The translations under genes were made by a program, and so were the position numbers. A stretch of 30,880 nt of DNA, from IMG/VR virus record IMGVR_UViG_648276660_000001; one strand, 5' to 3'. The notes beneath the pieces were generated by a model, which worked only from the letters and a program-made list of their open reading frames with translations, did no database searches and was not told the DNA's origin. This DNA comes from a virus (lineage: Duplodnaviria; Heunggongvirae; Uroviricota; Caudoviricetes). Shown here in pieces: positions 1 through 29,798 of the stretch; positions within the stretch are counted from its first letter, which is position 1, and each line of letters begins with the position of its first letter.

Positions 1-117
1 GGCGGTCTTTTCATATCTATTCGTACCTCAAAGGTAATAAAAAACCAAATCTGGTTGATCTTTTTTTTGTGTCAGCACAAAATGACCGTAATCCCAATAC
101 TAATAACAGGGCTTACC

Positions 118-318
118 ATGGAAATCATTACACGTATTGATGCCGCAAAGCGCGGACTTAAACGCTACTACACCGGAAAAACATGTAAGCACGGACATGA
201 CAGTGAACGCTGGGTTTACAACGGACACTGTGTTGAGTGCACCATGGAATCAAACCGTCGTATCAGGGCAGAGATTAAGCAGATCATGATTAATTCCTCC
301 CCACAACATTCAAGCTGA
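118..318 (+). CDS. Hypothetical small Cys/His-rich (zinc-binding-like) protein; start uncertain (ORF open from 55, alternative ATG at 82)
   Basis: ORF 55..318; motif C-K-H-G-H ... H-C-V-E-C in translation; no strong RBS at any candidate start; palindromic operator-like site lies upstream at 23..38. Confidence 0.4.
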   Translation: MEIITRIDAAKRGLKRYYTGKTCKHGHDSERWVYNGHCVECTMESNRRIRAEIKQIMINSSPQHSS

Positions 319-333
319 TAGCGGAGATTAATC

Positions 334-1131
334 ATGAGCAGACATGCAACAGATTGGGCCTGGGAGACAGATCCAGGTAGCTCATCATTAAAGCTCATAC
401 TGCTCTCGATGGCTGACAGAGCCGATGAATATAACCTCTGCTACCCCAGCATAGAACGCCTCGTTAAAGACACTTGCCTGAATAAAAAAACCGTGCAGGC
501 CGGGCTTATATCGCTCATGAAAATGGGGCTTATTTCAGATACCGGAGAGAGAAAGGGAGCGACAAAAAGAGTGCGGGTTTTCTCTCTTAATATAACCAAA
601 AACGGGAACATTAAAGGCAACCGGGAGGGGGGCAATGAACCCGAAAACGGGAATATTCCCAAAAACGGGATGTTGAATGATCCCAAAAACGGGATGTTGA
701 ATGATCCCAAAAACGGGATCCAGAACCAGTCATATAACCAGTCATTTAACCAAGAGAGGGAGAGCAGGACAAAAAGCGGGGATTCTGTGCCTCATGACCC
801 CGGAGCAAACAACGCCGTGATGAATAACTTTGTTCCTCCTGGTGGGCCAGGGCAATTAGGCAAATTTGTCATGCATGAACAATGGCAGCCATCAGATGAC
901 TTTCTTCGGAAAAGCTCATTGCAGGGGATCTACCTGGACAGTCTGCCAACGGCACAGGAACTTGCAGAGTTCAGAATTTACTGGATGGCTGAGGGTAAGG
1001 CATACCATCAGGCACAGTGGGAGCAGAAGCTGGCAAGGCGGCTGCAGATTAGCAGACAGAAGCAATCAACATTACCTGATAACAACGTTCCGCACTGGAA
1101 CAGCCCTGAAGCATGGGAGGATTTCTTGTGA
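334..1131 (+). CDS. Phage replication initiation protein, lambda O-like, with the origin iterons embedded in the gene
   Basis: GGAG RBS 7 nt before ATG 334; N-terminal region looks like a helix-turn-helix initiator domain; central repeated peptide PKNGMLNDPKNG is encoded by the iteron array; position immediately upstream of a lambda P-like gene. Confidence 0.8.
   Translation: MSRHATDWAWETDPGSSSLKLILLSMADRADEYNLCYPSIERLVKDTCLNKKTVQAGLISLMKMGLISDTGERKGATKRVRVFSLNITKNGNIKGNREGGNEPENGNIPKNGMLNDPKNGMLNDPKNGIQNQSYNQSFNQERESRTKSGDSVPHDPGANNAVMNNFVPPGGPGQLGKFVMHEQWQPSDDFLRKSSLQGIYLDSLPTAQELAEFRIYWMAEGKAYHQAQWEQKLARRLQISRQKQSTLPDNNVPHWNSPEAWEDFL
596..718. repeat. Iteron array (five copies of CC(C)AAAAACGGGA, last three spaced 24 bp) - probable replication origin inside the initiator gene
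   Basis: Direct repeats read at 596, 640, 658, 682, 706; arrangement matches lambda ori lying within gene O (established knowledge). Confidence 0.7.
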
Positions 1132-1913
1132 ACAACGTTTTTACCGCGATACAAAACCGTGACGGAGAAGCCCTTTCTCGCATGTCAGGTTATGAGCATC
1201 AGTACGTCAACAATGACAATGTGGTGAACATGTCAGCAGAGAGGCTTGTTGATGCCCTTTTTAAACAGCTGAAACAACTGTTTCCGGCGGCAGTGGTAAC
1301 CAACCTGAAGACGCCAGAGCAGGAAGTTGCTGCAAAACAGCAGTGGATTGCTGCGTTTGCCGAAGGGGGGATCCGAACCCGTGAACAGGTTTCTGCTGGT
1401 ATGCGCCACGCCCGCGCCAGTGAATCTCCGTTCTGGCCGTCTCCAGGGCAATTTATCAAGTGGTGCAAAGACAGCAAGATGGTTCTTGGCGTCACCATTG
1501 ACGATGTGATGGCGGAGTTTCACCGGTACAGCAAGGAAAAAAGTTTATATCCTGGTGGTCCCGAAAGATTCCCGTGGCGACATCCGGTTATGTACTGGGT
1601 CGTATGTGATACCCGCCGTGCAATGTATCAGCGCCAGCTTAGCGAGATTGAGGTTGAGAAACACGCACGCAGGCTGCTCGATGATTGGGCGAAAAAGGTG
1701 GCTTCCGGACAGCAGATACCCGATCCGGTGATCAGCATACAGGCAAAGCCAGAGCCCATGAGTACGCCTCCGGACACAGGGAGAGACGTTTACCATCCAC
1801 CAGGGCGAAGTTTCGGGTGCATGCCTAACGCCGCCACCCTTGGGGGAATAACACCGGCGCAGTGGCTGATGGAGGAATACAGGCGGGGAAAGGCGGCAGG
1901 ATTTATCAAGTAA
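1128..1913 (+). CDS. Replication protein, lambda P-like (DnaB helicase loader)
   Basis: Translation shares a recalled block with lambda P (FPAAVVTNL...QQWIAAFAEGGIRTREQVSAGMRHAR...PFWPSPGQFIKWC...YPW...YW); GTG 1128 overlaps the upstream TGA stop (GTGA) with GGGAGG RBS 7 nt upstream; ATG 1113 is the alternative start. Confidence 0.8.
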   Translation: MNNVFTAIQNRDGEALSRMSGYEHQYVNNDNVVNMSAERLVDALFKQLKQLFPAAVVTNLKTPEQEVAAKQQWIAAFAEGGIRTREQVSAGMRHARASESPFWPSPGQFIKWCKDSKMVLGVTIDDVMAEFHRYSKEKSLYPGGPERFPWRHPVMYWVVCDTRRAMYQRQLSEIEVEKHARRLLDDWAKKVASGQQIPDPVISIQAKPEPMSTPPDTGRDVYHPPGRSFGCMPNAATLGGITPAQWLMEEYRRGKAAGFIK

Positions 1914-1984
1914 TACCAGCGCGATAGCGCATTTTTTTACGCCTCGACAATTACCTGTTAGGTAATAAAATATTCTAAAATCTA

Positions 1985-2028
1985 TTGATTTCGTGTCTTA
2001 TGTGGTTTTTAATTACCTCAGAGGTAAA
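1985..2028 (+). promoter_or_regulatory. Predicted sigma70 promoter (-35 TTGATT 1985..1990, 17-bp spacer, -10 TTTAAT 2008..2013) overlapped by palindromic operator ATTACCTcagAGGTAA (2012..2028); a second operator copy lies at 1950..1966
   Basis: Read directly from sequence; the right operator half-site AGGT doubles as the Shine-Dalgarno for the gene starting at 2031. Confidence 0.55.
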
Positions 2029-2030
2029 TC

Positions 2031-2375
2031 ATGAGAAAACAGATACAGGCTCTTGGTCGACTCAAAACAGGTCAGATGAACAAAACAGAATCTGCGTATT
2101 GCCAGCACCTTGAGCTGCGTAAACGTGCAGGAGAAATCGTCTGGTATCGATTTGAGGGTATCAAGCTGCGGTTAGCTGACAACACGTTCTATACGCCCGA
2201 TTTTGCTGTGATGCTCGCCACCGGCGAGATGGAACTGCACGAAGTGAAAGGTTTCTGGACCGACGACGCCAGGGTGAAAACCAAAGTCGCCGCAGATCAG
2301 TATCCGTTCCGAATCATCGGGGTAACGGTTAAACCAAAGAAAGCAGGTGGTGGCTGGATCATCGAAGAGTTCTGA
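2031..2375 (+). CDS. Hypothetical protein, tentatively DUF1064-like (nuclease-fold family common in phage nin regions)
   Basis: ATG preceded by GAGG RBS; 114 aa; pattern ...YTPDF.V......E.KG...D.....K...AAD.YP resembles recalled DUF1064 proteins (not verified by search). Confidence 0.6.
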   Translation: MRKQIQALGRLKTGQMNKTESAYCQHLELRKRAGEIVWYRFEGIKLRLADNTFYTPDFAVMLATGEMELHEVKGFWTDDARVKTKVAADQYPFRIIGVTVKPKKAGGGWIIEEF

Positions 2376-2436
2376 ATCGACGATCTTTTTAGTTATCAAT
2401 GTTATCAATAAGTTATGTGGATAAGCGAGGGTAAAG

Positions 2437-3000
2437 ATGGAAAGTAATATCAAATGGTTAGTTGCCGCCGGGCATGAGATGGCTTCTGAACTGAAAGCAG
2501 AATGTGGTGCCGTTGATATGCGCAGTGTGGCAAAGCTGATCAGCGATTTGGCAACGCAACTGGAAGTGCAACTGGTGCGTGCTAATGCGCTGGCCGAAGA
2601 CCAGCAGAAAGCGATTGAGTCAATTAAGCAGGCTGATGCAGCTGTTAAGTTGGCACACGAGAAGTTTTCGGCGCTGGCAGCGGAGAATGCGGGGCTAAAG
2701 TCTGGCGCTATGGACGAAATCAAGGTTATCAACCGTGGAGGGCAGGCATATTGCGTAAAAGATGGAGTGCAAGTTAATCCCATGTATGCAAGAGGGTGGA
2801 ATGACTATCGCGCAAAGTCTCTGCAATCAGACACCCCAGCTACCGATGCTTTTCTGGCTGAAATTGAACGCAAAGCAATCCGCAAGTTCATTAACAGCAT
2901 TGAACACATCCTGCGTGACAAGCTGTCTCCGTATGACACCGAAGAGATGCTTGAGGCTATGCGTATTTTTCTGGAAGAACAGAGTGGTGAGCAAAAATGA
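2437..3000 (+). CDS. Hypothetical protein
   Basis: 187-aa ORF with GAGGG RBS upstream of ATG; same strand and operon context. Confidence 0.65.
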   Translation: MESNIKWLVAAGHEMASELKAECGAVDMRSVAKLISDLATQLEVQLVRANALAEDQQKAIESIKQADAAVKLAHEKFSALAAENAGLKSGAMDEIKVINRGGQAYCVKDGVQVNPMYARGWNDYRAKSLQSDTPATDAFLAEIERKAIRKFINSIEHILRDKLSPYDTEEMLEAMRIFLEEQSGEQK

Positions 3001-3314
3001 CAATCACAAAACAACGGGTAGAAGAAATCATATCCCGCATTGAAATGTATGGACATGGTGCAGGATATACCGCTGACGAGGTTTATGACCTAGCTGTACT
3101 GGCGCTGAATTTATCAAATATCGCAAACCTGAAGCGATACGAGCTTGATATGGGTGGTTGTGACTCGTGCGGTCAGGATTGTGGCGCTGACATGACTGAA
3201 GATTCTGATGGCAATTATGTCCTGTTTGATGACGTGGTTAAGTTGTTTGAGTTTGATACAACCACTCAGAAGTTAGAAGGCCCAGCAAAGGAGGCAACCA
3301 GTGAGCAAGATTGA
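2997..3314 (+). CDS. Hypothetical protein
   Basis: 105-aa ORF; ATGA start/stop overlap with the upstream gene (translational coupling). Confidence 0.6.
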   Translation: MTITKQRVEEIISRIEMYGHGAGYTADEVYDLAVLALNLSNIANLKRYELDMGGCDSCGQDCGADMTEDSDGNYVLFDDVVKLFEFDTTTQKLEGPAKEATSEQD

Positions 3315-3876
3315 CTATCAGGCACTGCGTGAAAAGGCAGAGAAAGCAACGTGTGGTGTGTGGTCGCTCGAATATGGAGAGGGACGATTTGATGGTGATG
3401 ATGCACTAATTCATCGCGAGGTTGCTGGATATATTCCTATTTGCAGAATTGAAGGAGCGCATCCTGAAAGCGGTTTCGATGAAGATTTCCAAACTGAACA
3501 GCAGGCCAATGCTGAATTCATCGCCGCAGCCAATCCGGCTACTGTGCTGGCGCTTCTGGATGAACGGGAAAGAAACCAGCAATACATCAAATCACGCGAC
3601 CAGGAGAACGAGGATATTGCGCTAACGGTAGGGAAGCTGCGCGTTGAGCTGGAAGCCGCAGAGAAGCGCATAGCAGAACTGGAAGCGCGGGAAGTTCAAT
3701 TACCGACTCGCTACGACCTTCGATATGGACATCCGATAAATGCAGATGAGCGACATGTCATGATACCTAAAGAAAATGGCAGTTGGCTTTACCTGATTGA
3801 CCTAGAACACGCATTACGCGTCGCTGACATTCGCATCAAAGGAGACGCAGGAGAACAAAACGATGAAAAACCGTAA
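3301..3876 (+). CDS. Ead/Ea22-like family protein (tentative)
   Basis: GTG start with AGGAGG RBS 7 nt upstream; translation contains NAEFIAAANPATVLALLDERE and a coiled-coil-like segment recalled from Ea22-like prophage proteins. Confidence 0.65.
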   Translation: MSKIDYQALREKAEKATCGVWSLEYGEGRFDGDDALIHREVAGYIPICRIEGAHPESGFDEDFQTEQQANAEFIAAANPATVLALLDERERNQQYIKSRDQENEDIALTVGKLRVELEAAEKRIAELEAREVQLPTRYDLRYGHPINADERHVMIPKENGSWLYLIDLEHALRVADIRIKGDAGEQNDEKP

Positions 3877-4035
3877 AGCAAAATTACTTCTTTTATCGCG
3901 TTCGACGGGGTACGAGAGGCTACCAATCAGCAATCACAAACGGGCGGTGATCGGCATGTTTGGTAGGGTGGTATTCGCATTTAACTATAAACCCACCGCG
4001 TCGCGGAACAGACGAGAGAAGGGGGACGCAGTGCG

Positions 4036-4224
4036 ATGAAAAACCGTAAGGAAAAAATTCTGTTAGCTCGCAGAAACGGTGTTGGGGTCTGGCGATGGTT
4101 GAGGATTAGTAACAGACGAGTGAGGTTGACGGGGTGTTGCGGGGTGATGGGGCACAGTTGTTGCAAAAAGCCCAGCGCGGCGCAAAACCGCTGGAAAAAC
4201 CACCTGCGCGCTAAAGGAGACTGA
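4036..4224 (+). CDS. Doubtful small Arg-rich ORF inside a G-rich, repeat-containing intergenic region
   Basis: 62-aa ORF with weak RBS; its first ~25 nt duplicate the 3' end of the gene ending at 3876, so it may be a recombination scar rather than a gene. Confidence 0.2.
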   Translation: MKNRKEKILLARRNGVGVWRWLRISNRRVRLTGCCGVMGHSCCKKPSAAQNRWKNHLRAKGD

Positions 4225-4225
4225 T

Positions 4226-4435
4226 ATGGCTATTGCCGCAAGTTACACCATGCATCTCTACTGTGATTGTCGCCAGTGTACAAATGGTAAATATCAAACG
4301 CCAGACTTCGGTGAGTATATCGGTACGTCATGGGCTGGCTGTGCAAAAGAGGCGCGCAAGGACGGCTGGCGAATAAGCAAAGACAAAACACGTGCTTTTG
4401 CGCCAGGGCATAAAGTTTTAAGGATTAACAAATGA
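4226..4435 (+). CDS. Hypothetical small Cys-containing protein
   Basis: AGGAG RBS 7 nt upstream of ATG 4226; 69 aa. Confidence 0.6.
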   Translation: MAIAASYTMHLYCDCRQCTNGKYQTPDFGEYIGTSWAGCAKEARKDGWRISKDKTRAFAPGHKVLRINK

Positions 4436-4944
4436 CCACTATTACCAGAGAACAGGCACAGAAAATTATTGAAGCAGCCGATGAGGTTATTAGTGCGCTG
4501 GCCGGAACTAATGAGGATGTTAACCCTGATAGCGATAACATGCTACGTCTGTGGGATGACCTGAATGACCGTCACGCGCCCCCTGAAGTTGTGCGTGAGC
4601 TGGCACGTATTGTGCTGGCATCGCTGGAAGCAGAACCGATGGCATGGCGATATCGCTACGTGAAAAAAGGCATTACGGACTCACAGGGGGAGCCGTGGGT
4701 TGGTGACTGGAAATATGTACCGACAAAAGAGGATTGCAACGACAGACCGAACTATGAAATTCAGGCGTTATTCACTGCCCCGCCTGTGCCACTGACACCA
4801 GAAGGATTGATTAAAGCAGTGCGCTTCTATGAACAGGTTAAGCGTGAGAATCCGCCAGTCGAAACCGGAGCATGGAAAGACGCTGTTGACTGGGTGCTCA
4901 AAGAGGCTTGCCAGGCTGTAAACATTGGTACCAAAGGAGAGTGA
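4432..4944 (+). CDS. Hypothetical protein, MTTIT-family paralog 1
   Basis: ATGA overlap with the upstream stop; N-terminus MTTITREQ; shares ELARIVLASLEAEP block with the paralog at 5140. Confidence 0.7.
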   Translation: MTTITREQAQKIIEAADEVISALAGTNEDVNPDSDNMLRLWDDLNDRHAPPEVVRELARIVLASLEAEPMAWRYRYVKKGITDSQGEPWVGDWKYVPTKEDCNDRPNYEIQALFTAPPVPLTPEGLIKAVRFYEQVKRENPPVETGAWKDAVDWVLKEACQAVNIGTKGE

Positions 4945-4945
4945 G

Positions 4946-5137
4946 ATGAACGGACAAATATCAATTGTTCGACCGGGAGCATGTGACGATAGCGAGATAC
5001 GAATGATTATTCGTCTGGCGATGGGGAAAACAATAACCGCTCTCATTACTCCAGAAAATCTCGCATTAGCATTAACCGGAAAGTCAGACCTACCAGTAGA
5101 GCTAAAGCTGCGAAATGTTGAGATTAAGGTGAAATAG
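4946..5137 (+). CDS. Hypothetical small protein
   Basis: RBS AAAGGAGAGTGAG immediately before ATG 4946 (same RBS string as the gene at 5555); 63 aa. Confidence 0.5.
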   Translation: MNGQISIVRPGACDDSEIRMIIRLAMGKTITALITPENLALALTGKSDLPVELKLRNVEIKVK

Positions 5138-5139
5138 CT

Positions 5140-5553: not shown

Positions 5554-5554
5554 T

Positions 5555-6798: not shown

Positions 6799-6839
6799 GA
6801 GTAGATTATGCATGATGAATTTGATGGGTTTTGAATACT

Positions 6840-6865
6840 GCCGCCAACTATGGCGGCTTTATTTT
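6840..6865 (+). terminator. Putative intrinsic terminator (GCCGCC-aactat-GGCGGC followed by TTTATTTT) at the end of the early/nin region
   Basis: GC hairpin plus T-run read in sequence; lies upstream of the predicted terminase start. Confidence 0.45.
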
Positions 6866-6875
6866 GCATGGTATT

Positions 6876-6892
6876 ATTACCACAACGGTAAC
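6876..6892. promoter_or_regulatory. Variant copy of the TTACC-N5-GGTAA palindrome (ATTACCacaacGGTAAC) just upstream of the terminase small subunit start
   Basis: Half-sites TTACC and GGTAA separated by 5 nt as in the eight consensus copies, but central flanking bases differ. Confidence 0.35.
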
Positions 6893-6908
6893 AATTACCA
6901 CGGTGGTT

Positions 6909-7505
6909 ATGATGCCTGCTGAACCTAAAACCTATAAACGCAAATCAACGCAATTTAAGCCGCTCACAGCAATGCAGGAGGCTTATTGCCAGTCATACAT
7001 CAAAACGCCTGAAAACCAGACTCAGGCAGCGATTAACGCAGGATTCTCCCCAAATACAGCGGCAGTTAAAGCCAGTGTCATGATGCGCGATGAACGCATT
7101 CAAAAACGGATTGCCGAGTTGATGGAGGAGCGCAACAAACGAATGCGCGTCAGTGCTGATTACGTTCTCATGCGCTTGGTGGAGATCGACCAGATGGACG
7201 TGATCGATATCCTCAACGACGATGGGAGCCTTAAACCAATCCGTGAGTGGCCGAAAATCTGGCGCACTACGCTTAGTGGCTTTGATCTGTCATCGACCAT
7301 CATGAACATGAACGAGGATTCGATAGAGACAATCCTCAAAAAAATTAAATGGCCTGACAAGGTGAAGAACCTAGAACTGATTGGTAAGCATGTTGATGTC
7401 AACGCGTTCAAAGAACGTCTGGATGTTAATGTGAATGTGACAATTGCTGATCGCATAGCAGCAGCCAGGAAGCGACTCAAAGAACGTCAGGATGGTAATC
7501 AGTGA
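6909..7505 (+). CDS. Terminase small subunit
   Basis: Translation contains LTAMQEAYCQSY...TQAAINAGFSPNTAAVKAS...RIQKRI, resembling recalled terminase small-subunit HTH domains; directly precedes the large subunit; start set at ATG 6909 after a GGTGG RBS (ORF is open from 6831). Confidence 0.75.
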   Translation: MMPAEPKTYKRKSTQFKPLTAMQEAYCQSYIKTPENQTQAAINAGFSPNTAAVKASVMMRDERIQKRIAELMEERNKRMRVSADYVLMRLVEIDQMDVIDILNDDGSLKPIREWPKIWRTTLSGFDLSSTIMNMNEDSIETILKKIKWPDKVKNLELIGKHVDVNAFKERLDVNVNVTIADRIAAARKRLKERQDGNQ

Positions 7506-9642: not shown

Positions 9643-9685
9643 AAGCACCTGGAGCTTCTGGCATCACGGTCCTTAGGCGTGATTC

Positions 9686-9762
9686 TGGCGTGGCATGCAG
9701 GATTCGAACCTGCGACCAACCGCTTAGAAGGCGGTTGCTCTGTCCAACTGAGCTAATGCCAC
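9686..9762 (-). tRNA. tRNA-Arg (anticodon UCU), phage-encoded
   Basis: Minus-strand 77 nt: GTGGCAT-TA-GCTC-AGTTGGACA-GAGC-A-ACCGC-CTTCTAA-GCGGT-TGGTC-GCAGG-TTCGAAT-CCTGC-ATGCCAC-G-CCA; 7-bp acceptor stem, canonical D, anticodon and T arms; anticodon loop CTTCTAA gives TCT; encoded CCA end. Confidence 0.9.
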
Positions 9763-10084
9763 AACGCTGAGAGCACTTAGCCTGTTAAGGCGCCACACTT
9801 TGTCGCGGCTCCATAAATGCTCTCATCGTTGTACCCTCGTCTCTTCCGAGGCGTCACACCGAATCGCCGGGATGGTGAATCCCCGTGCGCGGAATAAAAC
9901 CGCTCGACTTGCACATTCCGGCTACCTGGTTCGTTTGCCCGAGCAAGGGAGGGTGCCCCTTAAACGTATCCAGACCGCTATCGGCGCATGTGCCATACGC
10001 CGTACTGCTCAAAATAAAAGCTCACTCCACCTGTTCAATTTAACGACAAGCCAGTCAGGTTAGTAACCGGAATGAACTCTTTGG

Positions 10085-10121
10085 TTACCTAAAGGGTAAT
10101 AATTAGCGCGTTAAATGTCAA
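10085..10121 (-). promoter_or_regulatory. Predicted minus-strand sigma70 promoter (perfect -35 TTGACA at 10116..10121, 17-bp spacer, -10 TACCCT at 10093..10098) whose -10 is the half-site of operator palindrome TTACCTaaaGGGTAAT (10085..10100)
   Basis: Read in sequence; directs transcription toward the tRNA and the 139-aa gene. Confidence 0.45.
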
Positions 10122-19376: not shown

Positions 19377-21889
19377 TGCCAGTCGTACCAACAGTATCCG
19401 GACGTCAGGTTGAGAGCCGTGGAGTTCAGTCAGCAGGCTTGCAGACGTTTTCTCAGCCAGGTATTGGTGATGCTTTTGTTCGGGCAGGGGCAGAGGCAAT
19501 TGATGTTTTGGGGCAGGCAAAACAGCGTGCCAATATTGCCTTGGCTCAGGAGGCATCTCTTAACCTCAGTCAGATAAGCAGTGATTTGCTGAATAATCCT
19601 GAAACAGGATTGCTTAACCTGAAAGGGAAAAATGCTATTGGAAAAGGCCATGAGTATACGCAGCAGTTTGATGCTCAGGTCGAACAATTGGCTATGTCGC
19701 TGCCGGATGAACAGGCTCGTAATGCTTTCATGCAGCAGGCGCAGCAGCAGCGCATTCAGTTCACTACGCAGGCCGGGCGGCACGAGATAGGGCAAATAAA
19801 TGCCTACGAAGAAGGCCAGTTTCAGGCTACGCTGCTGAACAATGGTAAAAATGCCGCAGCATTGTATGGCGACAACGCCGCATACGTATTGGCTAATAAG
19901 CAAACTTTCCAGCAAATTGAGGATTACGGCATTGCACATGGCTGGAGTGACGAGCAAATCCAGGCCAAGAAAATCGAGTTTAAAGAAGCAACAGCAAAAG
20001 CAACTGCTCAAAATGCTATTGGAGCAAACTATCTTCAGGTAAGATGGCAAAACGGCGAGTTAAGCGATACTGCTGCTGGATCTCGCCGTGCTGTAGCAGA
20101 TAGTGGCTCTTCCGATCGTACCCGCGGTATACGCAACAATAACCCCGGCAATCTTGAATACAGCAAAACTAATCCGTGGGTTGGGCAGACTGGTGATGAT
20201 GGTCGCTTTGCCAAATTCGAAACCCCTGAACACGGTATTCGTGCATTAGGGCGGAACCTGATGTCGTATCAGCGGCAGGGTATTGATACCGTCAGCGAGA
20301 TAATTAATCGCTGGGCACCGCCTACTGATAAAAATGACACTATGTCGTATATCAAAGCAGTGTGCGAACAACTTGGCGTTTCTGCTGATGAGCCTCTCGA
20401 TGCATCAAATCCTGATACCCTGAAGGCGCTTTGTGCAGCCATTATCCATCATGAAAACGGTAGCCAGCCATACAGTGATCAGCAGTTAACTGCAGGTGTT
20501 AGTGCTGCGCTGGGGCTTTCTCAGCTACCGACAAAAAATAAACGTTATACCGGTGTAGCCTGGTTCGATGCTTTAAGTGAATCAGATCAGGCCAGCGTGT
20601 TGCGACAGACTGATGCACTAGCCAGACAACAGCAGGCTGAATATAAAACGATGCTCGACAGCCGGGTTCGCGATGCGACGGCTGCGTATATGCGTGGCGT
20701 TGAATTTCCTAACCCACCTGGTGAGGATGATTTTATTGCAGCTTATGGAGTCAGAGAAGGAAACCTGCGATATACCGAGTTTAAGAATACGCAGATCGCC
20801 GGACAGTATATAGGCTCTTTCCGCAACATGCCGACAAGCAGCATTACAGCATATGTTGAGCAATTACGCCCGGATACTGGTGATACAGGGGAGGGGTATG
20901 CGGCACGCGCAGCTCTTTATGACAACGTTGTTTCGGCTGCAAATCAGGTGATAAAGCAGCGGCAGTCGGATCCTGTGCAGTTCTCTCTTGCCTCCGGACA
21001 GGCAAAGCCTATCGACATGAGCAATAAGGATAACTTTGGACAGAGCGTTGCCTTGCGTGCCGCTCAGGTCAGTGACCTTGCTAAGTCATATGGCACTCCA
21101 CTGACGTTCTTTTCCAAAGACGAGGCCAATCAGATCGGTGTTTTCTTTCGTGATGCGCCAGTTTCCCAACAGGCAGCATATCTCGATACCATCAGGCAGA
21201 GCACTGGTGGTGGGCAGGTGTATATGTCAGCACTACAGCAGATCAGTGCCAACGCTCCATCTGCTGCCGTTGCCGGGATACTGATGGATAAGCCTGGTGG
21301 TATTTTGGCAGAAAAAAACTGGTTTAATCCTGATGTTTCCGTGTCTCCTGAAACCGCAGCGCAGACAATTCTTGCTGGTGCGGCGGCTCGTAAAGGTACT
21401 GATGACGCGAAAGGTATTCCGATGCCTAAAGATGCTGATCTCCGCATTGAGTTTTCTGACATGGTGAAGGATGCATTTGCTGGTGATGCTCAGGGGGCAT
21501 CAATGGCATACGAGATCGCAAAGGACTATTACGCTGGTGTGATGGCGAAAAAAGGCGTGGTATCAGGCGAAATTGACAATGATATCTGGAAACAGGCTGT
21601 TAACGTAGCTACAGGTGGCGTGCATGACTATAACGGAATGGGGAATGTTCTTTTGCCGTGGGGAATGTCTGCAGAGCAATTCGATAAGCAGGTTAATCAG
21701 GCTTGGAATGAACAAGTTGTCGGCACAGGGATAAAAACACCGCTTGGTCAGTATGGTTTGCAAAGTTACGGCGATAGTCAGTACCTGGTGAAACTTGGTA
21801 CTGGTTATCTGCTAAAAGATGATGGTTCTCCCGTTGTTCTTGATCTGACACAGAAGCGTCAGAGATTCTCCGGAGATATTCCGCAATGA
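19376..21889 (+). CDS. Large internal virion/ejection protein with a conserved central block (GIRNNNPGNLEY ... IIHHENG), possibly a cell-wall-acting domain
   Basis: ATG 19376 with GGAGGA RBS and TAATG overlap (the ORF-track extension from 19301 overlaps the upstream gene); 837 aa; position after gp14-like gene. Confidence 0.7.
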   Translation: MPVVPTVSGRQVESRGVQSAGLQTFSQPGIGDAFVRAGAEAIDVLGQAKQRANIALAQEASLNLSQISSDLLNNPETGLLNLKGKNAIGKGHEYTQQFDAQVEQLAMSLPDEQARNAFMQQAQQQRIQFTTQAGRHEIGQINAYEEGQFQATLLNNGKNAAALYGDNAAYVLANKQTFQQIEDYGIAHGWSDEQIQAKKIEFKEATAKATAQNAIGANYLQVRWQNGELSDTAAGSRRAVADSGSSDRTRGIRNNNPGNLEYSKTNPWVGQTGDDGRFAKFETPEHGIRALGRNLMSYQRQGIDTVSEIINRWAPPTDKNDTMSYIKAVCEQLGVSADEPLDASNPDTLKALCAAIIHHENGSQPYSDQQLTAGVSAALGLSQLPTKNKRYTGVAWFDALSESDQASVLRQTDALARQQQAEYKTMLDSRVRDATAAYMRGVEFPNPPGEDDFIAAYGVREGNLRYTEFKNTQIAGQYIGSFRNMPTSSITAYVEQLRPDTGDTGEGYAARAALYDNVVSAANQVIKQRQSDPVQFSLASGQAKPIDMSNKDNFGQSVALRAAQVSDLAKSYGTPLTFFSKDEANQIGVFFRDAPVSQQAAYLDTIRQSTGGGQVYMSALQQISANAPSAAVAGILMDKPGGILAEKNWFNPDVSVSPETAAQTILAGAAARKGTDDAKGIPMPKDADLRIEFSDMVKDAFAGDAQGASMAYEIAKDYYAGVMAKKGVVSGEIDNDIWKQAVNVATGGVHDYNGMGNVLLPWGMSAEQFDKQVNQAWNEQVVGTGIKTPLGQYGLQSYGDSQYLVKLGTGYLLKDDGSPVVLDLTQKRQRFSGDIPQ

Positions 21890-23688: not shown

Positions 23689-23693
23689 ATTAA

Positions 23694-26168: not shown

Positions 26169-26177
26169 GGAACAACA

Positions 26178-26591
26178 ATGAAGGAATTATTGCTGTTATC
26201 GGTATTTTTGATATCCGCTTGCTCGACATCCTATGATGTTTATGACGGTGTTGATAAGGCATATTGCGACAAAGTTAAAATGGATTTTTCTCTTGCCAAG
26301 ACGGCGAAGGATAGTTGTATTGATCACTACGTCAAGACTTATACCAAGCCAGCCTCATCGGCATCTGATATTGCTGAAGGTGCTGTGTTTGAGTGTAACA
26401 AGGTGATATCCATCGCAGCGAGTTCTTCATACGATGCTGCTGTATGTGCAATGGCTGAAAGAAACGGCATGTCAGTGCAAAAAATTAATAGCATGATAAG
26501 CAGTAATGACGAAGCCAAAATAAGAACTGATATCAGCTCGGTGAAAAAAGATGCCATGAACAGAGTTGTAAAATATCAGTCATCTTTATAA
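26178..26591 (+). CDS. Putative lipoprotein (cargo gene; candidate superinfection-exclusion or envelope protein)
   Basis: AAGGAA RBS; N-terminus MKELLLLSVFLISAC has a signal peptide with lipobox-like LISA-C; AT-rich relative to neighbours; followed by palindrome copy 3 and a terminator. Confidence 0.65.
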   Translation: MKELLLLSVFLISACSTSYDVYDGVDKAYCDKVKMDFSLAKTAKDSCIDHYVKTYTKPASSASDIAEGAVFECNKVISIAASSSYDAAVCAMAERNGMSVQKINSMISSNDEAKIRTDISSVKKDAMNRVVKYQSSL

Positions 26592-26594
26592 GTC

Positions 26595-26606
26595 GTGACA
26601 TGTCAC
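26595..26606. repeat. Perfect 12-bp palindrome GTGACATGTCAC, copy 3 of 3
   Basis: Exact string read in sequence. Confidence 0.9.
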
Positions 26607-26607
26607 A

Positions 26608-26631
26608 GGCCGCTTTCGCGGCCTTGTTTTT
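26608..26631 (+). terminator. Intrinsic terminator (GGCCGC-tttc-GCGGCC followed by TTGTTTTT)
   Basis: Read in sequence between convergent genes. Confidence 0.7.
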
Positions 26632-26791
26632 AACGAATGCCACCGCCACCCGGGCGGGAATCCGCAGAACGCCCACCGCAGCGGGAGCCGTCAGCAGCAG
26701 TGTCGCTGTCGTGCTGACAACGACCGGCAAAGGCCTGAGTTGAAGCTACCAGAGACAACAAAACGAACAGTGCAGCAAATGCTTTTTTCAT
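26630..26791 (-). CDS. Small secreted peptide (53 aa precursor, about 31-aa Gly/Arg/Cys-containing mature part)
   Basis: Minus-strand ATG at 26791; textbook Sec signal MKKAFAALFVLLSLVASTQAFA with AxA cleavage motif; weak RBS; ORF track gives a longer N-terminally extended version. Confidence 0.45.
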   Translation of the reverse strand: MKKAFAALFVLLSLVASTQAFAGRCQHDSDTAADGSRCGGRSADSRPGGGGIR

Positions 26792-26861
26792 TGTGAAATT
26801 TCCATCTATAAGCCACCTCAATGTGGCGTCAATGAGTGTAGCACTGACTTTTGTTTCGCCC

Positions 26862-26884
26862 ACAAAAAAGCCCGCAGCGCGGGC
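26862..26884 (-). terminator. Intrinsic terminator of the minus-strand two-gene operon (GCCCGC-agc-GCGGGC then TTTTTTGT on minus strand)
   Basis: Read in sequence; hairpin overlaps the stop codon at 26884. Confidence 0.65.
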
Positions 26885-27324
26885 TATTCTTCTTCATCAT
26901 TAAAAAGCGGATTGTTGTTTCCATCTGATGAAAGGAAAGGTATGTGTTCTCTTGAAAATCCAACAATGACAATTTCATTATCATTTTTTGCATAATGAAT
27001 GCATTCATTAGAATGCCTTCCGCCAGGGTTGAAATTTAAGTTAATGGTATAATTCTTAAATGTGTTTGGATACCATGTTGGCCCACAATGATAATGCCAA
27101 TAATTCTCTTGCTCATAATTGTCTGAGCCGGGAATTTTATCATGGTTATCATCAACCCACGAGGGCTTGTTTTTTCCAACAAGCGCCCTTCCATTGGCAA
27201 CATCCTCTAAAAAACTTTGTATGATTTTTATTTCATCATCAGTAAGGAAAGGTCCGTCTACAGCGAAAGGGGTGTTGCTTTCCCCATGTAGAAAACTATT
27301 AGATATTCTAATGTTAAACTTCAA
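26884..27324 (-). CDS. Hypothetical cargo protein (about 146 aa; His/Cys-containing motif WHYHCG ... GGRHSNECIHY), second gene of a two-gene operon
   Basis: Predicted TTG start at 27324 with AGGAG RBS 6 nt upstream; the ORF-track N-terminal extension to 27465 overlaps the upstream small gene in another frame; markedly AT-rich. Confidence 0.5.
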   Translation of the reverse strand: MKFNIRISNSFLHGESNTPFAVDGPFLTDDEIKIIQSFLEDVANGRALVGKNKPSWVDDNHDKIPGSDNYEQENYWHYHCGPTWYPNTFKNYTINLNFNPGGRHSNECIHYAKNDNEIVIVGFSREHIPFLSSDGNNNPLFNDEEE

Positions 27325-27344
27325 GGAAAACTCCTGATGTGCTT

Positions 27345-27512
27345 CTATTTGGAGCGAAATGCCGCCTTGAAGTCGCTGAAAGATGTTCCTGTCTGGTAAA
27401 CCATATCCTTGTCGCGCTCTTTGCTTGCGCGGCCAAGCATAACTTTTCCAATGACATCCCAGCATTGCTTGGCTTGTTCATTGTGCTGAGTACGATTTTT
27501 CAACGCTGTCAT
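27345..27512 (-). CDS. Hypothetical small protein (55 aa), first gene of the two-gene operon; absent from the ORF track (below size cut-off)
   Basis: Hand-translated from minus strand: MTALKNRTQHNEQAKQCWDVIGKVMLGRASKERDKDMVYQTGTSFSDFKAAFRSK; AGGAGG RBS 6 nt upstream of ATG 27512; stop TAG at 27345. Confidence 0.55.
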   Translation of the reverse strand: MTALKNRTQHNEQAKQCWDVIGKVMLGRASKERDKDMVYQTGTSFSDFKAAFRSK

Positions 27513-27523
27513 ATCGCGCCTCC

Positions 27524-27567
27524 TTTACCTTTAAGGTAATAGTACGCTATTCACCCACAGTCTGCAA
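27524..27567 (-). promoter_or_regulatory. Predicted minus-strand promoter (-35 TTGCAG at 27562..27567, 17-bp spacer, -10 TACTAT at 27539..27544) with operator palindrome TTTACCTttaAGGTAAT (27524..27540) at the transcription start
   Basis: Read in sequence. Confidence 0.5.
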
Positions 27568-27611
27568 TCTGTACAGAATTATTTAAAGGCACATCCCTGT
27601 GCCGCCGCCCG

Positions 27612-28298
27612 TCAGAAGAACCCAGCCTTGTCGTTGATGTACTCCGCGTGGGTCTGGATATCACGCAGGCATTTGCTCACACCAACAATGTAGCAGAACA
27701 TGGTGGTCAGCTCCGCCGCCGCGCCCGATACGTCGTGCCCGTCTTCCTGTAACTGGTTCAGCAGATTCATCAGCAGTGAGTTCTCCGTCAGGCCGAGAAC
27801 ACCAGACGGAGAATGAATCAGGCTGCGGTAGCCGGGCTTCAGTGGGGCACTGTAGGTTTTGTTCTCTATCTTCATTGCCTGCATCACTGCTGATGCTGTG
27901 GCGTTGGCTACCTGGTCGGCAACTATCTTTATGCGTTCTTCCTGCGGGAGCGAGTTTTTAATGTAACTTCCGGTGCGGCGGATCTGAGGAAGAACCTCAC
28001 CTGTAACCCATTTACGAAAGCGGTAGGGGATAGTGCCTGGTGTCACTGCGTCGCGGCAGCGGAGGATCAGTGTGTAGAGGCCTGACTCGTTGATAATATT
28101 GGTTTCACCTTGACGGCCTAAGTTAAATTTAGCCCTTTCATCATCATCAAGAGATTTTATTGACATAGTGGGGTTTGTCAGTTGAAGAGCTTTAATAACG
28201 TCTTTGGCAACAAACCAAGGATTTCCATCAATAACAATGGCTCGAATGGTGGCTTCTGATTCAAAATGAAAAACAGATGGGGTTACGTTAGCAGTCAT
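27612..28298 (-). CDS. Antirepressor (Bro-N N-terminal domain plus Ant/KilA-C-like C-terminal domain)
   Basis: Translation contains FHFESEATIRAIVIDGNPWFVAKDVIKALQL, typical of Bro-N/AntA domains (recalled); ATG 28298 with GGTGA RBS 6 nt upstream (GTG at 28307 is the alternative). Confidence 0.8.
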   Translation of the reverse strand: MTANVTPSVFHFESEATIRAIVIDGNPWFVAKDVIKALQLTNPTMSIKSLDDDERAKFNLGRQGETNIINESGLYTLILRCRDAVTPGTIPYRFRKWVTGEVLPQIRRTGSYIKNSLPQEERIKIVADQVANATASAVMQAMKIENKTYSAPLKPGYRSLIHSPSGVLGLTENSLLMNLLNQLQEDGHDVSGAAAELTTMFCYIVGVSKCLRDIQTHAEYINDKAGFF

Positions 28299-28456
28299 AG
28301 TGATCACCTTTTAGTATGGTTAATCACCACCTGAGGTGCAAATCTCGTTGGTGGTGAGACGTACAGGGTTTGCACTACCGGCTAAAAGGACCCGGCGCAC
28401 CTTTCGGTGCCCCTGCACGTCCCACCATAATTCTGGCATGACTGTGCTATACGCAT

Positions 28457-28478
28457 AAAAAAACCACGTCTGGCGTGG
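28457..28478 (-). terminator. Intrinsic terminator inside the antirepressor leader (CCACG-ccaga-CGTGG followed by TTTTTTT on minus strand)
   Basis: Hairpin plus U7 read in sequence, about 160 nt upstream of the ant start. Confidence 0.5.
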
Positions 28479-28640
28479 TATGCGCCTTTTAGTAATCCGG
28501 GGTGCAAATCCCGGCACTGGATTTTGCCAGTGCCCGATTACTATGGCACAAGAGGAGTGCGATGTAAATTTACCGAAAAGGTAATGATAAGCGCGAAAAA
28601 ACATTAAAATCAACCGTATTTGGTTGATTGCGTTTAACGC

Positions 28641-28678
28641 TTGATCACCTGAAAGCAAGATATTACCTTTAAGGTAAT
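28641..28678 (+). promoter_or_regulatory. Predicted plus-strand promoter (-35 TTGATC 28641..28646, -10 TACCTT 28664..28669) overlapped by operator palindrome ATTACCTttaAGGTAAT (28662..28678)
   Basis: Read in sequence; drives the gene starting at 28698. Confidence 0.45.
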
Positions 28679-28697
28679 GTTATTGTGAGGAAAAGCA

Positions 28698-29426
28698 ATG
28701 GAAGTTTTCTGGATAGTTGTTGGTGTGGTTGCGGTGATTATTTACGTTATCAACCAGAACAAGACTAAGATCTCTGATCGTACGGTCGTTAATCAGAACA
28801 AAACGATAAAGACCGAAGATGGGGAGATAACGATTAATCGTACACAGGTGATAGAGCACACATCTACTCAGTTTCAAAAAACTGGAGGTAACGCGCCTGA
28901 TATTTCCGTACCTCCTGCTTATGATAGTGCGGTAATCCAGACATATTATAAACAGCAGGAGTTAGCAAAAGAGAGGCAACTGATTCAGCCAAAGCCGTTT
29001 ACAGCTGAGCTTCCACCTGGAGTGTCAACGCGTCCGGCATATCATGGAAGATTCCCTGGTGATGACATATCGTCTCAGTCATTTAAAAAAGCACCTCAGG
29101 CAGTATCAGAGCCAGCAAGAATATCTTCTGTATCGCCGCCAAAAGAAGAATCAGCTAACAGAGTTTCAAGCGGTAGCAAGCAGTGCTTGCGATGCAGAAT
29201 AAACCTTCCATATGAAAAATTCAGGAAATCGTCAAAAAATCCGGATGGATTGACTAAGTGGTGTGCAAGGTGTCTCGATGGCCCAAAGAATACACGTCAT
29301 ATGAAGTGGTGCCCAATTTGTAATGTCCGCAGAAAACGAACCAGCTTTTACCCTAATAATCAAAATGCGGACGGCTTAATGGCATGGTGCAAAACGTGCT
29401 GGGACGAGCACAAAGCGAAACGATAG
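28698..29426 (+). CDS. Membrane-anchored protein with C-terminal repeated zinc-ribbon motifs (cargo gene)
   Basis: GAGG RBS; N-terminal hydrophobic helix MEVFWIVVGVVAVIIYVI; C-terminus has four CxxC pairs, two in near-identical context (PDGLTKWCARCLD and ADGLMAWCKTCWD); followed by a terminator. Confidence 0.7.
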   Translation: MEVFWIVVGVVAVIIYVINQNKTKISDRTVVNQNKTIKTEDGEITINRTQVIEHTSTQFQKTGGNAPDISVPPAYDSAVIQTYYKQQELAKERQLIQPKPFTAELPPGVSTRPAYHGRFPGDDISSQSFKKAPQAVSEPARISSVSPPKEESANRVSSGSKQCLRCRINLPYEKFRKSSKNPDGLTKWCARCLDGPKNTRHMKWCPICNVRRKRTSFYPNNQNADGLMAWCKTCWDEHKAKR

Positions 29427-29428
29427 GC

Positions 29429-29452
29429 CGCTCTTGCGGCCTTTAAATTTAC
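29429..29452. terminator. Bidirectional intrinsic terminator (GGCCGC-tcttg-GCGGCC then TTTAAATTT)
   Basis: Read in sequence between convergent genes. Confidence 0.6.
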
Positions 29453-29706
29453 CGGGTTTGTTTTCGTAATTGTTCGGCACAATAGTCGAGATGTGTTTGC
29501 AGATCCTGCATAGACATCTGTGAGCTGGTGACGTAGTTAATCAGTGCAGTCAGTTCGGCAAGTGGGCCATCGACATTAAATCCATCCTTATCGAGATCCC
29601 GGAGTAATTTCATCAAGTGCGATCCCTCCACCAGTGACCTGACGCCTCCCGGCGTGTGAATCCTTTCGGTAAATCCGTCTTCCAGTGGATAGTGATACTG
29701 CTGCAT
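29449..29706 (-). CDS. Small Ant C-terminal-domain-only protein (about 85 aa), candidate SOS-inducible antirepressor
   Basis: Translation from MQQYHYPLEDGF... is homologous to the C-terminal third of the 228-aa antirepressor at 27612..28298 (shared SLL.NLL..L...G..V.G..AELT..F.Y); GGAG RBS 8 nt upstream of ATG 29706; LexA box 22 nt upstream; ORF track shows a longer version without RBS. Confidence 0.6.
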   Translation of the reverse strand: MQQYHYPLEDGFTERIHTPGGVRSLVEGSHLMKLLRDLDKDGFNVDGPLAELTALINYVTSSQMSMQDLQTHLDYCAEQLRKQTR

Positions 29707-29727
29707 CTTATCTTCTCCATGCAATAA

Positions 29728-29743
29728 CTGTATATTTATACAG
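29728..29743. promoter_or_regulatory. Canonical LexA (SOS) box CTGTATATTTATACAG
   Basis: CTGT-N8-ACAG with AT-rich centre read in sequence, overlapping the likely -10 region of the minus-strand gene starting at 29706. Confidence 0.7.
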
Positions 29744-29781
29744 TAGCAAATAATTTGTTTGCTATCCAGCACGTTTTGCAA

Positions 29782-29798
29782 ATTACCTGAAAGGTAAT
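29782..29798. promoter_or_regulatory. Operator palindrome ATTACCTgaaAGGTAAT adjacent to a TTGCAA -35-like hexamer of the SOS-box promoter
   Basis: Read in sequence. Confidence 0.5.

What the first reader, a model, noticed from the sequence alone, without database searches (positions are those of the whole stretch)
23..29798. Eight-copy 17-bp palindrome ATTACCT-N3-AGGTAAT positioned at promoters: operator set of an unidentified regulator
Seen in sequence: copies at 23-38, 1950-1966, 2012-2028, 10085-10100, 27524-27540, 28569-28585, 28662-28678, 29782-29798, plus a variant at 6876-6892. All are intergenic. In five cases a sigma70-like -35/-10 pair can be read with the palindrome starting at or just after the -10 hexamer. 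With about ten fixed positions, fewer than 0.1 chance occurrences are expected in this window (rough estimate). The stem is invariant while the 3-nt centre varies, which favours protein recognition of DNA over a purely structural RNA hairpin; in two cases the AGGT half-site is also the Shine-Dalgarno of the downstream gene. The core ACCT-N3-AGGT matches the published palindrome bound by the antitoxin/regulator MqsA, so an MqsA-like factor (host or phage) is one hypothesis; the regulator is not obviously encoded in this window. The controlled genes span the nin-region, the tRNA, the antirepressor, cargo operons and the late operon.
Basis: partly seen in the sequence, partly recalled or inferred. 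Interest (0 to 1): 0.8.

Follow-up and report, generated by a model that had tools for sequence, protein, structure and literature searches.

The report
Known repressor operators of an epsilon15-like prophage
The repeated palindrome is real, but it is the already-annotated operator of the prophage's own immunity repressor, whose gene lies about 430 bp outside the window, so it is an ordinary feature of epsilon15/phiV10-like phages and not a site for an unknown or MqsA-like regulator.

Summary
The window has nine good copies and one degenerate copy of a 17-bp palindrome, against about 0.1 expected by chance. All lie between genes. The conserved core is TTACC-N5-GGTAA, not ACCT-N3-AGGT.

The window is part of an epsilon15/phiV10-like (Uetakevirus) prophage inserted at guaA of E. 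coli MS 198-1. The epsilon15 GenBank record already labels the same motif, at matching positions, as "protein_bind: repressor; lysogeny".

The repressor gene lies about 430-1000 bp left of the window. It is flanked by five more copies, three good and two degenerate. Its product matches the crystallised SPC32H repressor (PDB 5D50) over its full length and is identical to the ZX5 repressor, which shuts off lytic genes when overexpressed.

The motif occurs 8-12 times in each of six repressor-bearing genomes. I found no copies in 107 kb of host DNA. In a scan of viral contigs, clusters of the motif occur almost only in Uetakevirus DNA.

The MqsA idea is not supported. MqsA's published site is AACCT-N3-AGGTT. 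Only 13 of 49 unique sites have its ACCT/AGGT core, and the repressor shows no similarity to MqsA.

I could not test binding directly, and could not open the key papers.

Verdict: already known; low interest.

The parts
22..38 (.). Operator copy CGTACCTCAAAGGTAAT. It sits just after the terminator of the Cro-like gene gp41 and upstream of the gp42-like gene (118-318).
   Evidence: Identical to the phiV10 site at 33111.
1917..2035 (+). Conserved regulatory cassette: terminator (GCGC-N4-GCGC plus T7), distal operator, -35 TTGATT, 17-nt spacer, -10 TTTAAT overlapping the proximal operator, Shine-Dalgarno, then the ATG at 2031.
   Evidence: Alignment of six Uetakevirus genomes. The cassette is kept in epsilon15-type phages that have different flanking genes. 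It is absent from other phages that share DUF1064 or P.
1950..1966 (.). Distal operator ATTACCTGTTAGGTAAT (perfect), 62 bp from its partner.
2012..2028 (.). Proximal operator ATTACCTCAGAGGTAAA. It overlaps the -10 (2008-2013), the likely transcription start and the Shine-Dalgarno of the DUF1064 gene.
6876..6892 (.). Operator ATTACCACAACGGTAAC. It follows a terminator (6840-6857) and overlaps a -10-like TATTAT (6872-6877), upstream of terS.
   Evidence: Homologous to the annotated epsilon15 repressor site at 12-27.
6894..6910 (.). Degenerate second operator ATTACCACGGTGGTTAT. Its right arm supplies the Shine-Dalgarno for the terS ATG at 6912.
   Evidence: The same paired arrangement occurs in phiV10 (86/104) and epsilon15 (11/29).
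10084..10100 (.). Operator GTTACCTAAAGGGTAAT, between tRNA-Arg (9686-9762, minus strand) and the head/portal operon (starts 10190).
   Evidence: Homologous to the annotated epsilon15 site at 2931-2947.
27524..27540 (.). Operator TTTACCTTTAAGGTAAT, 12 nt upstream of a 55-aa minus-strand gene (27345-27512) and downstream of the BRO-N gene.
28569..28585 (.). Operator TTTACCGAAAAGGTAAT. It overlaps the -10 and start region of a minus-strand promoter-like site (TTGATT-18-TATCAT, 28613-28584) that faces the BRO-N gene.
28662..28678 (.). Operator ATTACCTTTAAGGTAAT (perfect), 20 nt upstream of the 242-aa gene (28698-29426) and 93 bp from the 28569 site.
29782..29798 (.). Operator ATTACCTGAAAGGTAAT (perfect), in the region between the divergent ant and tailspike genes.
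   Evidence: Homologous to the annotated epsilon15 site at 19895-19911.
29726..29745 (.). LexA (SOS) box AACTGTATATTTATACAGTA in front of ant. It belongs to the same induction circuit.
   Evidence: Conserved across the genus, including SPC32H.
29449..29706 (-). The ant gene: a small antirepressor of 85 aa.
   Evidence: 88% identical to SPC32H Ant.

Best explanation
The palindromes are operators of the prophage's own lysogeny repressor, Rep. Rep is a 194-aa protein with two helix-turn-helix regions. Its gene lies about 430-1000 bp to the left of the window. The small Cro-like protein gp41, encoded next to rep, probably shares the same sites.

The window belongs to an epsilon15/phiV10-like podovirus prophage. 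This genome is divided into separate transcription units, several of which begin with a terminator followed by a promoter. An operator overlaps that promoter, either at the -10 and start site or within the spacer. Bound Rep would therefore block RNA polymerase at the early-right, replication/nin, packaging, head and accessory-gene units, and at the ant-tailspike intergenic region, all at once. Operator pairs exactly 62 bp apart (about six helical turns) would allow one Rep tetramer to hold two sites.

Induction would follow the scheme published for SPC32H. DNA damage removes LexA from the box in front of ant, Ant is made, Ant breaks up the Rep tetramer, and every operon is released together.

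Shown here: the motif, its enrichment, its positions, its homology to annotated sites, and its co-occurrence with rep, gp41 and ant. Inferred: binding by Rep, the promoter assignments, DNA looping, and the order of events at induction.
For: - Annotation: the epsilon15 GenBank record labels 7 ATTACC-N5-GGTAAT sites 'protein_bind: repressor; lysogeny'. Four correspond in position to window sites: before terS, before the head operon, between ant and tailspike, and between the replication and nin-like genes.
- Source: the window matches E. coli MS 198-1 at 99.9%. In that prophage, rep is flanked by 2 copies on the leftward-promoter side. A tripartite cluster (one good copy plus two degenerate ones) lies between rep and gp41.
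- Repressor identity: Rep matches SPC32H Rep (PDB 5D50) at E = 4e-42 over its full length. It is 100% identical to the ZX5 repressor, whose overexpression cut lysin and holin transcripts by more than 99.9% (PMC9782041).
- Published binding mode: SPC32H Rep is reported to bind palindromic sites as a tetramer (PMC9638917).
- Enrichment: 8-12 copies in each of six Rep-bearing genomes, with Rep only 43-100% identical among them, against at most 0.07 expected. No copies in two phages with only a remote match to part of Rep.
- Host background: 0 exact cores in 107 kb of host DNA, including a lambdoid prophage, against 11 in the 41-kb prophage.
- Viral contig scan: 34 of 36 loci with 3 or more sites carry a Uetakevirus marker gene; 59 of 68 single-site loci carry none.
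- Protein conservation: the stretch NLVNRW in the Rep N-terminal domain, a candidate recognition helix, is invariant, as is the gp41 segment AGTTSHYIQ.
- Not a hairpin: the variable arm positions do not covary, and the predicted hairpins are weak, -3.3 to -4.8 kcal/mol.
- Spacing: the 62-bp pair spacing is identical in all six genomes.
- Induction module: Ant is 88% identical to SPC32H Ant, and a LexA box lies in front of it.
Against: - No binding experiment could be run or read. The primary papers were not available: Kropinski 2007 (PMC2698709), Kim & Ryu 2013 (PMC3807360) and Kim 2016 (PMC4983836).
- The GenBank annotation is a prediction by its authors.
- Sequence data cannot separate Rep from gp41 as the binder, because both have invariant helix-turn-helix segments.
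- Most promoter assignments are weak consensus matches. The scanner found no more promoter-like sites than in shuffled sequence.
- The six genomes are related, so shared positions and the shared 62-bp spacing are not independent observations.
- The operator at 22 has no partner 62 bp away.
Confidence: 0.85

Rival explanations
1. The sites are bound mainly by the Cro-like protein gp41 (76 aa, encoded just left of the window) rather than by Rep. They would then act during lytic growth, not in maintaining lysogeny.
For: gp41 matches phrog_35, 'transcriptional repressor'. It lies divergent from rep across a tripartite operator cluster. Its segment AGTTSHYIQ is invariant across the genus, and the protein is more conserved overall than Rep.
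Against: In classical phage switches both proteins share the same operators, so this adds to the main explanation more than it competes with it. The epsilon15 annotation names the repressor. ZX5 Rep alone shuts down lytic transcripts. SPC32H Rep is reported to bind palindromic sites.
Confidence: 0.07
2. Host antitoxin MqsA, or an MqsA-like factor, binds the ACCT-N3-AGGT core and so ties prophage expression to the host toxin-antitoxin stress response.
For: Six of the window's sites contain ACCT-N3-AGGT, which overlaps the published MqsA core.
Against: MqsA's site is AACCT-N3-AGGTT (PMC4894380). Every phage site has T, not A, before ACC (TTACC...GGTAA). Across six genomes, positions 7 and 11 are T/A in only about 50% of sites, and only 13 of 49 unique sites keep the full core. 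The motif tracks the phage's rep, gp41 and ant genes in Salmonella, Klebsiella and Enterobacter phages. Rep has no significant similarity to MqsA.
Confidence: 0.03
3. The palindrome is the binding site of a phage-encoded activator, for example the PerC-family or AlpA-like protein of the early-left operon. Alternatively it is simply part of a phage-specific promoter consensus.
For: The motif sits at promoters, and its ends (ATTA/TAAT) contribute to -10-like hexamers. PerC-like and AlpA-like regulators are encoded in the prophage.
Against: Overlap with the -10, the start site or the spacer is the geometry of repression, not activation. The densest clusters flank rep and gp41, as expected for an immunity operator. 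The motif's position relative to the promoter hexamers varies between sites, so it is not itself a promoter element.
Confidence: 0.04
4. The palindromes act as RNA or DNA hairpins, for example as terminators, processing sites or replication signals.
For: They can form stems of 5-7 bp, and several lie next to terminators.
Against: The stems are AT-rich and weak (-3.3 to -4.8 kcal/mol), and no U-tract follows them. Pairs 1:17, 7:11 and 8:10 are complementary no more often than in shuffled columns, and single-arm changes are not compensated. Separate GC-rich terminators sit alongside them.
Confidence: 0.01

Closest known systems
Predicted repressor operators of Salmonella phage epsilon15 (GenBank AY150271.2; Kropinski et al. 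2007, Virology 369:234)
   Same: Same 17-bp palindrome, ATTACC-N5-GGTAAT. Same genus. Matching positions: before terS, before the head operon, between ant and tailspike, in the replication/nin intergenic cassette, and flanking the repressor gene.
   Different: This prophage is the phiV10 type. Its Rep is only about 42% identical to epsilon15 Rep. It carries extra operators in an accessory-gene region (27524, 28569, 28662). The phiV10 GenBank record does not annotate operators.
Rep-Ant-LexA switch of Salmonella phage SPC32H (PDB 5D50/5D4Z; Kim & Ryu 2013; Kim et al. 2016)
   Same: Rep is homologous over its full length (E = 4e-42). Ant is 88% identical. The LexA box and the ant-tailspike region are conserved. 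SPC32H carries 12 copies of the same motif.
   Different: The Rep C-terminal half has diverged. I could not read which operators were tested experimentally in SPC32H; what I state about the mechanism comes from secondary citations and from memory.
Genome-wide operator networks of phage P1 (C1 repressor) and mycobacteriophage L5 (gp71 'stoperators')
   Same: One repressor with many operators spread across the genome, silencing many transcription units directly rather than through a cascade. This comparison rests on general knowledge and was not tested here.
   Different: The P1 and L5 sites are asymmetric and the proteins are unrelated. Here the sites are symmetric palindromes placed at promoters.
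MqsA palindrome AACCT-N3-AGGTT (PMC4894380)
   Same: Both have an ACC ... GGT inverted repeat with a similar spacing, and both are read by helix-turn-helix proteins.
   Different: The flanking base differs (TACC versus AACC). The T/A next to the core is not conserved in the phage motif. The proteins are not detectably related.

Membership tests
epsilon15/SPC32H-type Rep operator set | 17-bp palindrome matching ATTACC-N5-GGTAAT | tested here: met
   Nine window sites score at least 10 of the 12 fixed positions, and eight contain exact TTACC-N5-GGTAA. The sites annotated in epsilon15 have the same sequence pattern.
epsilon15/SPC32H-type Rep operator set | Sites at positions matching the annotated epsilon15 sites | tested here: met
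   The pre-terS site, the pre-head-operon site, the ant-tailspike site and the replication/nin cassette all align with the epsilon15 sites.
epsilon15/SPC32H-type Rep operator set | A cognate Rep gene in the same element, with operators clustered around it | tested here: met
   rep lies at L003 8998-9582, about 430-1000 bp left of the window. It matches 5D50 at E = 4e-42. Operators lie at L003 8863, 8925 and 9637, with degenerate copies near 9654 and 9686.
epsilon15/SPC32H-type Rep operator set | The motif co-occurs with Rep/Cro/Ant genes and is absent elsewhere | tested here: met
   8-12 copies in each of six Rep-bearing genomes and none in two outgroup phages. No exact cores in 107 kb of host DNA. 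34 of 36 multi-site viral loci carry Uetakevirus markers. The two exceptions are low-GC phages with their own XRE-type repressors.
epsilon15/SPC32H-type Rep operator set | Direct, sequence-specific binding by Rep | not testable with these tools
   This needs a gel-shift, footprinting or ChIP experiment. The primary papers were not available.
Rep-Ant-LexA induction module (SPC32H type) | A small Ant gene preceded by a LexA box | tested here: met
   Ant is 88% identical to SPC32H Ant. A LexA box lies at 29726-29745, two mismatches from the consensus. The region is conserved across the genus.
MqsA binding site | Palindrome AACCT-N(2-3)-AGGTT | tested here: not met
   All sites read TACC/GGTA, with T rather than A outside the ACC core. 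Only 13 of 49 unique sites keep ACCT-N3-AGGT.
MqsA binding site | An MqsA-like regulator (zinc-ribbon plus XRE helix-turn-helix) as the binder | tested here: not met
Whether the host carries mqsA was not checked.
Intrinsic terminator / structured RNA hairpin | A stable GC-rich stem followed by a U-tract, or covarying stem positions | tested here: not met
   Predicted stability is -3.3 to -4.8 kcal/mol, with no U-tract and no covariation. The terminator scan does not report these sites.

The most novel reading that the evidence does not exclude
A subset of the operators, the six window sites that happen to read TACCT-N3-AGGTA, might also be recognised by the host antitoxin MqsA. Prophage transcription would then respond to toxin-antitoxin or stress signalling as well as to Rep, Ant and LexA. 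A less exotic and more likely novelty is that the strictly conserved 62-bp operator pairs are bridged by a single Rep tetramer, which would loop the DNA around each promoter.
Probability: 0.03. Interest if true: 0.55.

Novelty: already known. Interest (0 to 1): 0.12.

Why it matters
It matters little beyond annotation. The result assigns a regulator to ten sites in this prophage. It moves the terS start from 6831 to 6912. It shows that phiV10-type E. coli prophages use the same operator as epsilon15 and SPC32H although their repressors are only about 42% identical. It also suggests that this genus silences most of its transcription units directly, through one repressor acting at terminator-promoter-operator modules. 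That organisation could be useful for engineering these phages, for example phiV10-based reporter phages for E. coli O157. It could also help predict which accessory genes stay silent in lysogens.

Tried and rejected
- Papers I could not open: Kropinski 2007 (by DOI and PMC2698709), Kim & Ryu 2013 (PMC3807360) and Kim 2016 (PMC4983836).
- Text searches that found nothing relevant: the consensus string I recalled (ATTACCWDWWNGGTAAT), ATTACC/GGTAAT with 'phage repressor', and 'Uetakevirus operator'.
- The phiV10 GenBank record has no operator features.
- MqsA hypothesis: rejected on motif, conservation and protein comparison.
- Hairpin or terminator reading: rejected.
- 'Common host repeat': rejected.
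- I looked for a partner operator 62 bp downstream of site 22 and found none.
- I looked for a canonical operator upstream of the lysis genes of this prophage, which lie outside the window. There was none, although phiV10, epsilon15, SPC32H and Tyrion have a variant there.
- The strict promoter scanner supported only two sites (1950 and 28569), and its counts did not exceed those in shuffled sequence.
- Sequence conservation could not separate Rep from gp41 as the binder.


Full report

Yes. The exact pattern ATTACCT-N3-AGGTAAT occurs three times (1950, 28662, 29782), against 0.00 expected. With up to two mismatches there are eight sites (22, 1950, 2012, 10084, 27524, 28569, 28662, 29782). The expectation is 0.09, and no shuffle reached eight.

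The variant at 6876 is real. A degenerate second copy follows it at 6894. What all copies share is TTACC-N5-GGTAA. The 7-bp arm with a 3-nt centre is not the shared unit.

All sites lie between genes. The only apparent exception is 6876/6894, which fall inside the terS reading frame as annotated in the MS 198-1 and phiV10 records (start TTG 6831). Similarity to epsilon15 terS begins at residue 28, the ATG at 6912, so the annotated start is too early.

**2. What is the window?**

It is a Uetakevirus, that is, an epsilon15/phiV10-like temperate podovirus. The best phage matches are PAS61, EC.W1-9, phiv142-3, TL-2011b and phiV10, at about 96-97% identity over the aligned parts.

The window is 99.9% identical to a prophage inserted at the 3' end of guaA in E. 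coli MS 198-1 (NZ_CP146687.1). In that prophage the window begins just right of the immunity region. The repressor gene rep (L003 8998-9582, minus strand) and a divergent Cro-like gene, gp41 (L003 9737-9967), lie within the 1 kb to the left of window position 1.

**3. The motif is already annotated.**

The epsilon15 GenBank record (AY150271.2) carries seven features labelled 'protein_bind, repressor, lysogeny'. Their sequences are ATTACC-N5-GGTAAT. They lie:
- before terS;
- before the head operon;
- between gp19 (the ant homologue) and the tailspike gene;
- left of the repressor gene (three copies);
- between the replication gene and the next early gene.

Window sites 6876, 10084, 29782 and 1950/2012 are the positional counterparts of these.

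From memory, Kropinski et al. 2007 gave the consensus as ATTACCWDWWNGGTAAT and proposed that it is the operator. I could not open that paper to check.

**4. Evidence linking the motif to the phage repressor.**

*Immunity region.* In the full prophage, two copies (L003 8863 and 8925, 62 bp apart) bracket a strong leftward promoter, TTGACA-17-AATTAT. The last two bases of its -10 are the first two bases of the operator. Between rep and gp41 lies a tripartite cluster: L003 9637, plus degenerate copies near 9654 and 9686. This is the classical layout of an immunity operator.

*The protein.* Rep matches the crystallised SPC32H repressor (PDB 5D50) at E = 4e-42 over residues 1-190. It is 100% identical to the repressor of phage ZX5. 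Overexpressing the ZX5 repressor lowered endolysin and holin transcripts by more than 99.9% (PMC9782041). SPC32H Rep is reported to bind palindromic DNA sites as a tetramer and to be taken apart by the antirepressor Ant (PMC9638917).

*Distribution.*
- Six genomes whose Rep proteins are 43-100% identical each have 8-12 sites, against at most 0.07 expected. These are phiV10, epsilon15, this prophage, SPC32H, Enterobacter phage Tyrion and Klebsiella phage BUCT711.
- Two phages with only a remote match to part of Rep have none.
- 107 kb of MS 198-1 host DNA, including a lambdoid prophage, has no exact core. The 41-kb prophage has 11.
- I scanned IMG/VR for ATTACC-N5-GGTAATAA. Of 36 loci with three or more sites, 34 encode a Uetakevirus Rep, gp41, Ant, portal or capsid homologue. 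Of 68 single-site loci, 59 encode none.

*A mobile cassette.* The 115-bp intergenic cassette at 1917-2035 is conserved at about 75% in epsilon15-type phages, even though their flanking genes differ (a RuvC-type resolvase in place of DUF1064). Phages outside the genus that share DUF1064 or P do not share the cassette.

*Candidate recognition segments.* The stretch NLVNRW in the Rep N-terminal domain is invariant, in line with the invariant half-site. The gp41 segment AGTTSHYIQ is invariant too, so sequence data cannot say which of the two proteins binds, or whether both do.

**5. How it probably works.**

A modular layout recurs. A terminator closes one transcription unit. An operator follows immediately (window 22, 1950 and 6876; L003 8925 next to the rep terminator). 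A promoter then restarts transcription, with an operator across its -10 and start site.

The clearest example is TTGATT-17-TTTAAT over operator 2012. That operator also covers the Shine-Dalgarno sequence. At 1950, and possibly at 29782, the operator fills the spacer between the -35 and -10 hexamers instead.

The operator pairs at the leftward promoter and in the 1950/2012 cassette are exactly 62 bp apart in all six genomes, with no insertions or deletions between them. This is about six helical turns, so both sites face the same side of the DNA. I infer that one Rep tetramer can hold both sites. This is not shown.

With operators at the early-right, replication/nin, packaging, head and accessory units, at the ant-tailspike intergenic region, and (in relatives) before the lysis genes and int, Rep would silence most of the phage's transcription units directly.

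Induction would follow the SPC32H scheme. The window encodes an 85-aa protein 88% identical to SPC32H Ant. A near-consensus LexA box lies in front of it at 29726-29745, and the whole intergenic region is conserved across the genus.

**6. Rival explanations.**

*MqsA.* Its published site is AACCT-N3-AGGTT (PMC4894380). The phage sites have T rather than A outside the ACC core. In 49 unique sites from six genomes, positions 7 and 11 are T/A only about 50% of the time. Only 13 sites keep ACCT-N3-AGGT. The centre of the dyad is A or T in 98% of cases. Rep against MqsA gives E = 1.2. This lead is not supported.

*Hairpin.* The stems are weak, -3.3 to -4.8 kcal/mol. Pairs 1:17, 7:11 and 8:10 are complementary no more often than in shuffled columns. 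Rejected.

*Activator site or promoter element.* The overlap with the -10 and start site, and the clustering around rep, argue against this.

*gp41 as the sole binder.* This cannot be excluded, but it complements the main explanation more than it competes with it.

**7. Limits.**
- I could neither run nor read any binding experiment.
- The GenBank features are predictions by the record's authors.
- Most promoter calls are weak consensus matches. The strict scanner found no excess over shuffled sequence.
- The palindrome's own 'AT' contributes to the -10-like hexamers.
- The compared genomes are related, so shared positions are not independent observations.

**8. Verdict.**

It is the known operator set of the epsilon15/SPC32H-type repressor, seen here in a phiV10-type E. 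coli prophage. Novelty: already known. Interest: low.

Noticed in passing
window 29726-29745 and 29449-29706: A near-consensus LexA box (AACTGTATATTTATACAGTA) lies 20 nt upstream of an 85-aa minus-strand gene that is 88% identical to the SPC32H antirepressor Ant. This suggests SOS induction through an antirepressor rather than through repressor cleavage.
   Followed up: partly
window 6831-6914: The terS start annotated in the MS 198-1 and phiV10 records (TTG 6831) is probably 27 codons too early. Similarity to epsilon15 terS starts at the ATG at 6912. The extra stretch contains a terminator (6840-6857) and two operators.
   Followed up: yes
window 657-752: A perfect 24-bp tandem repeat (2.6 copies, TCCCAAAAACGGGATGTTGAATGA) and a 12-bp repeat lie inside the DnaT-like replication gene (334-1131). 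They look like iterons of a replication origin.
   Followed up: no
window 22, 1950, 6876; L003 8863/8925: Operators sit immediately after intrinsic terminators. Operator pairs are exactly 62 bp apart in all six genomes compared, which suggests insulated operons and possibly DNA looping by a tetramer.
   Followed up: partly
window 9686-9762: A tRNA-Arg (anticodon TCT) gene lies on the minus strand between terL and the head operon. It is present in SPC32H and absent from epsilon15 and phiV10.
   Followed up: no
L032 3816-3894; L067 10758-10934: Two low-GC IMG/VR phage contigs unrelated to Uetakevirus carry tight triple clusters of TTACC-N5-GGTAA. Each cluster lies next to an XRE-type CI-like repressor, and in L067 an ImmA-like protease gene as well. 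The same palindrome seems to be used by unrelated repressors.
   Followed up: partly
window 27612-28298 and 28698-29426: An accessory region holds a BRO-N domain gene and a 242-aa gene with endonuclease VII/HNH-like zinc-finger matches. Relatives annotate the BRO-N gene as an 'anti-repressor'. The region has three operators of its own, so these cargo genes are probably also silent in the lysogen.
   Followed up: no
L003 3781-3797 (outside the window, upstream of int): A weaker copy, ATTACCTTAAAGGTATA, is conserved upstream of the integrase gene in this prophage and, with minor base differences, in phiV10, epsilon15 and SPC32H. It may be an operator for int.
   Followed up: no
L003 42520-42535 (outside the window, upstream of the lysis genes): This prophage lacks the operator variant that relatives have before the lysis cassette. 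A different palindrome, AACCAT-AA-ATGGTT, lies there instead.
   Followed up: no
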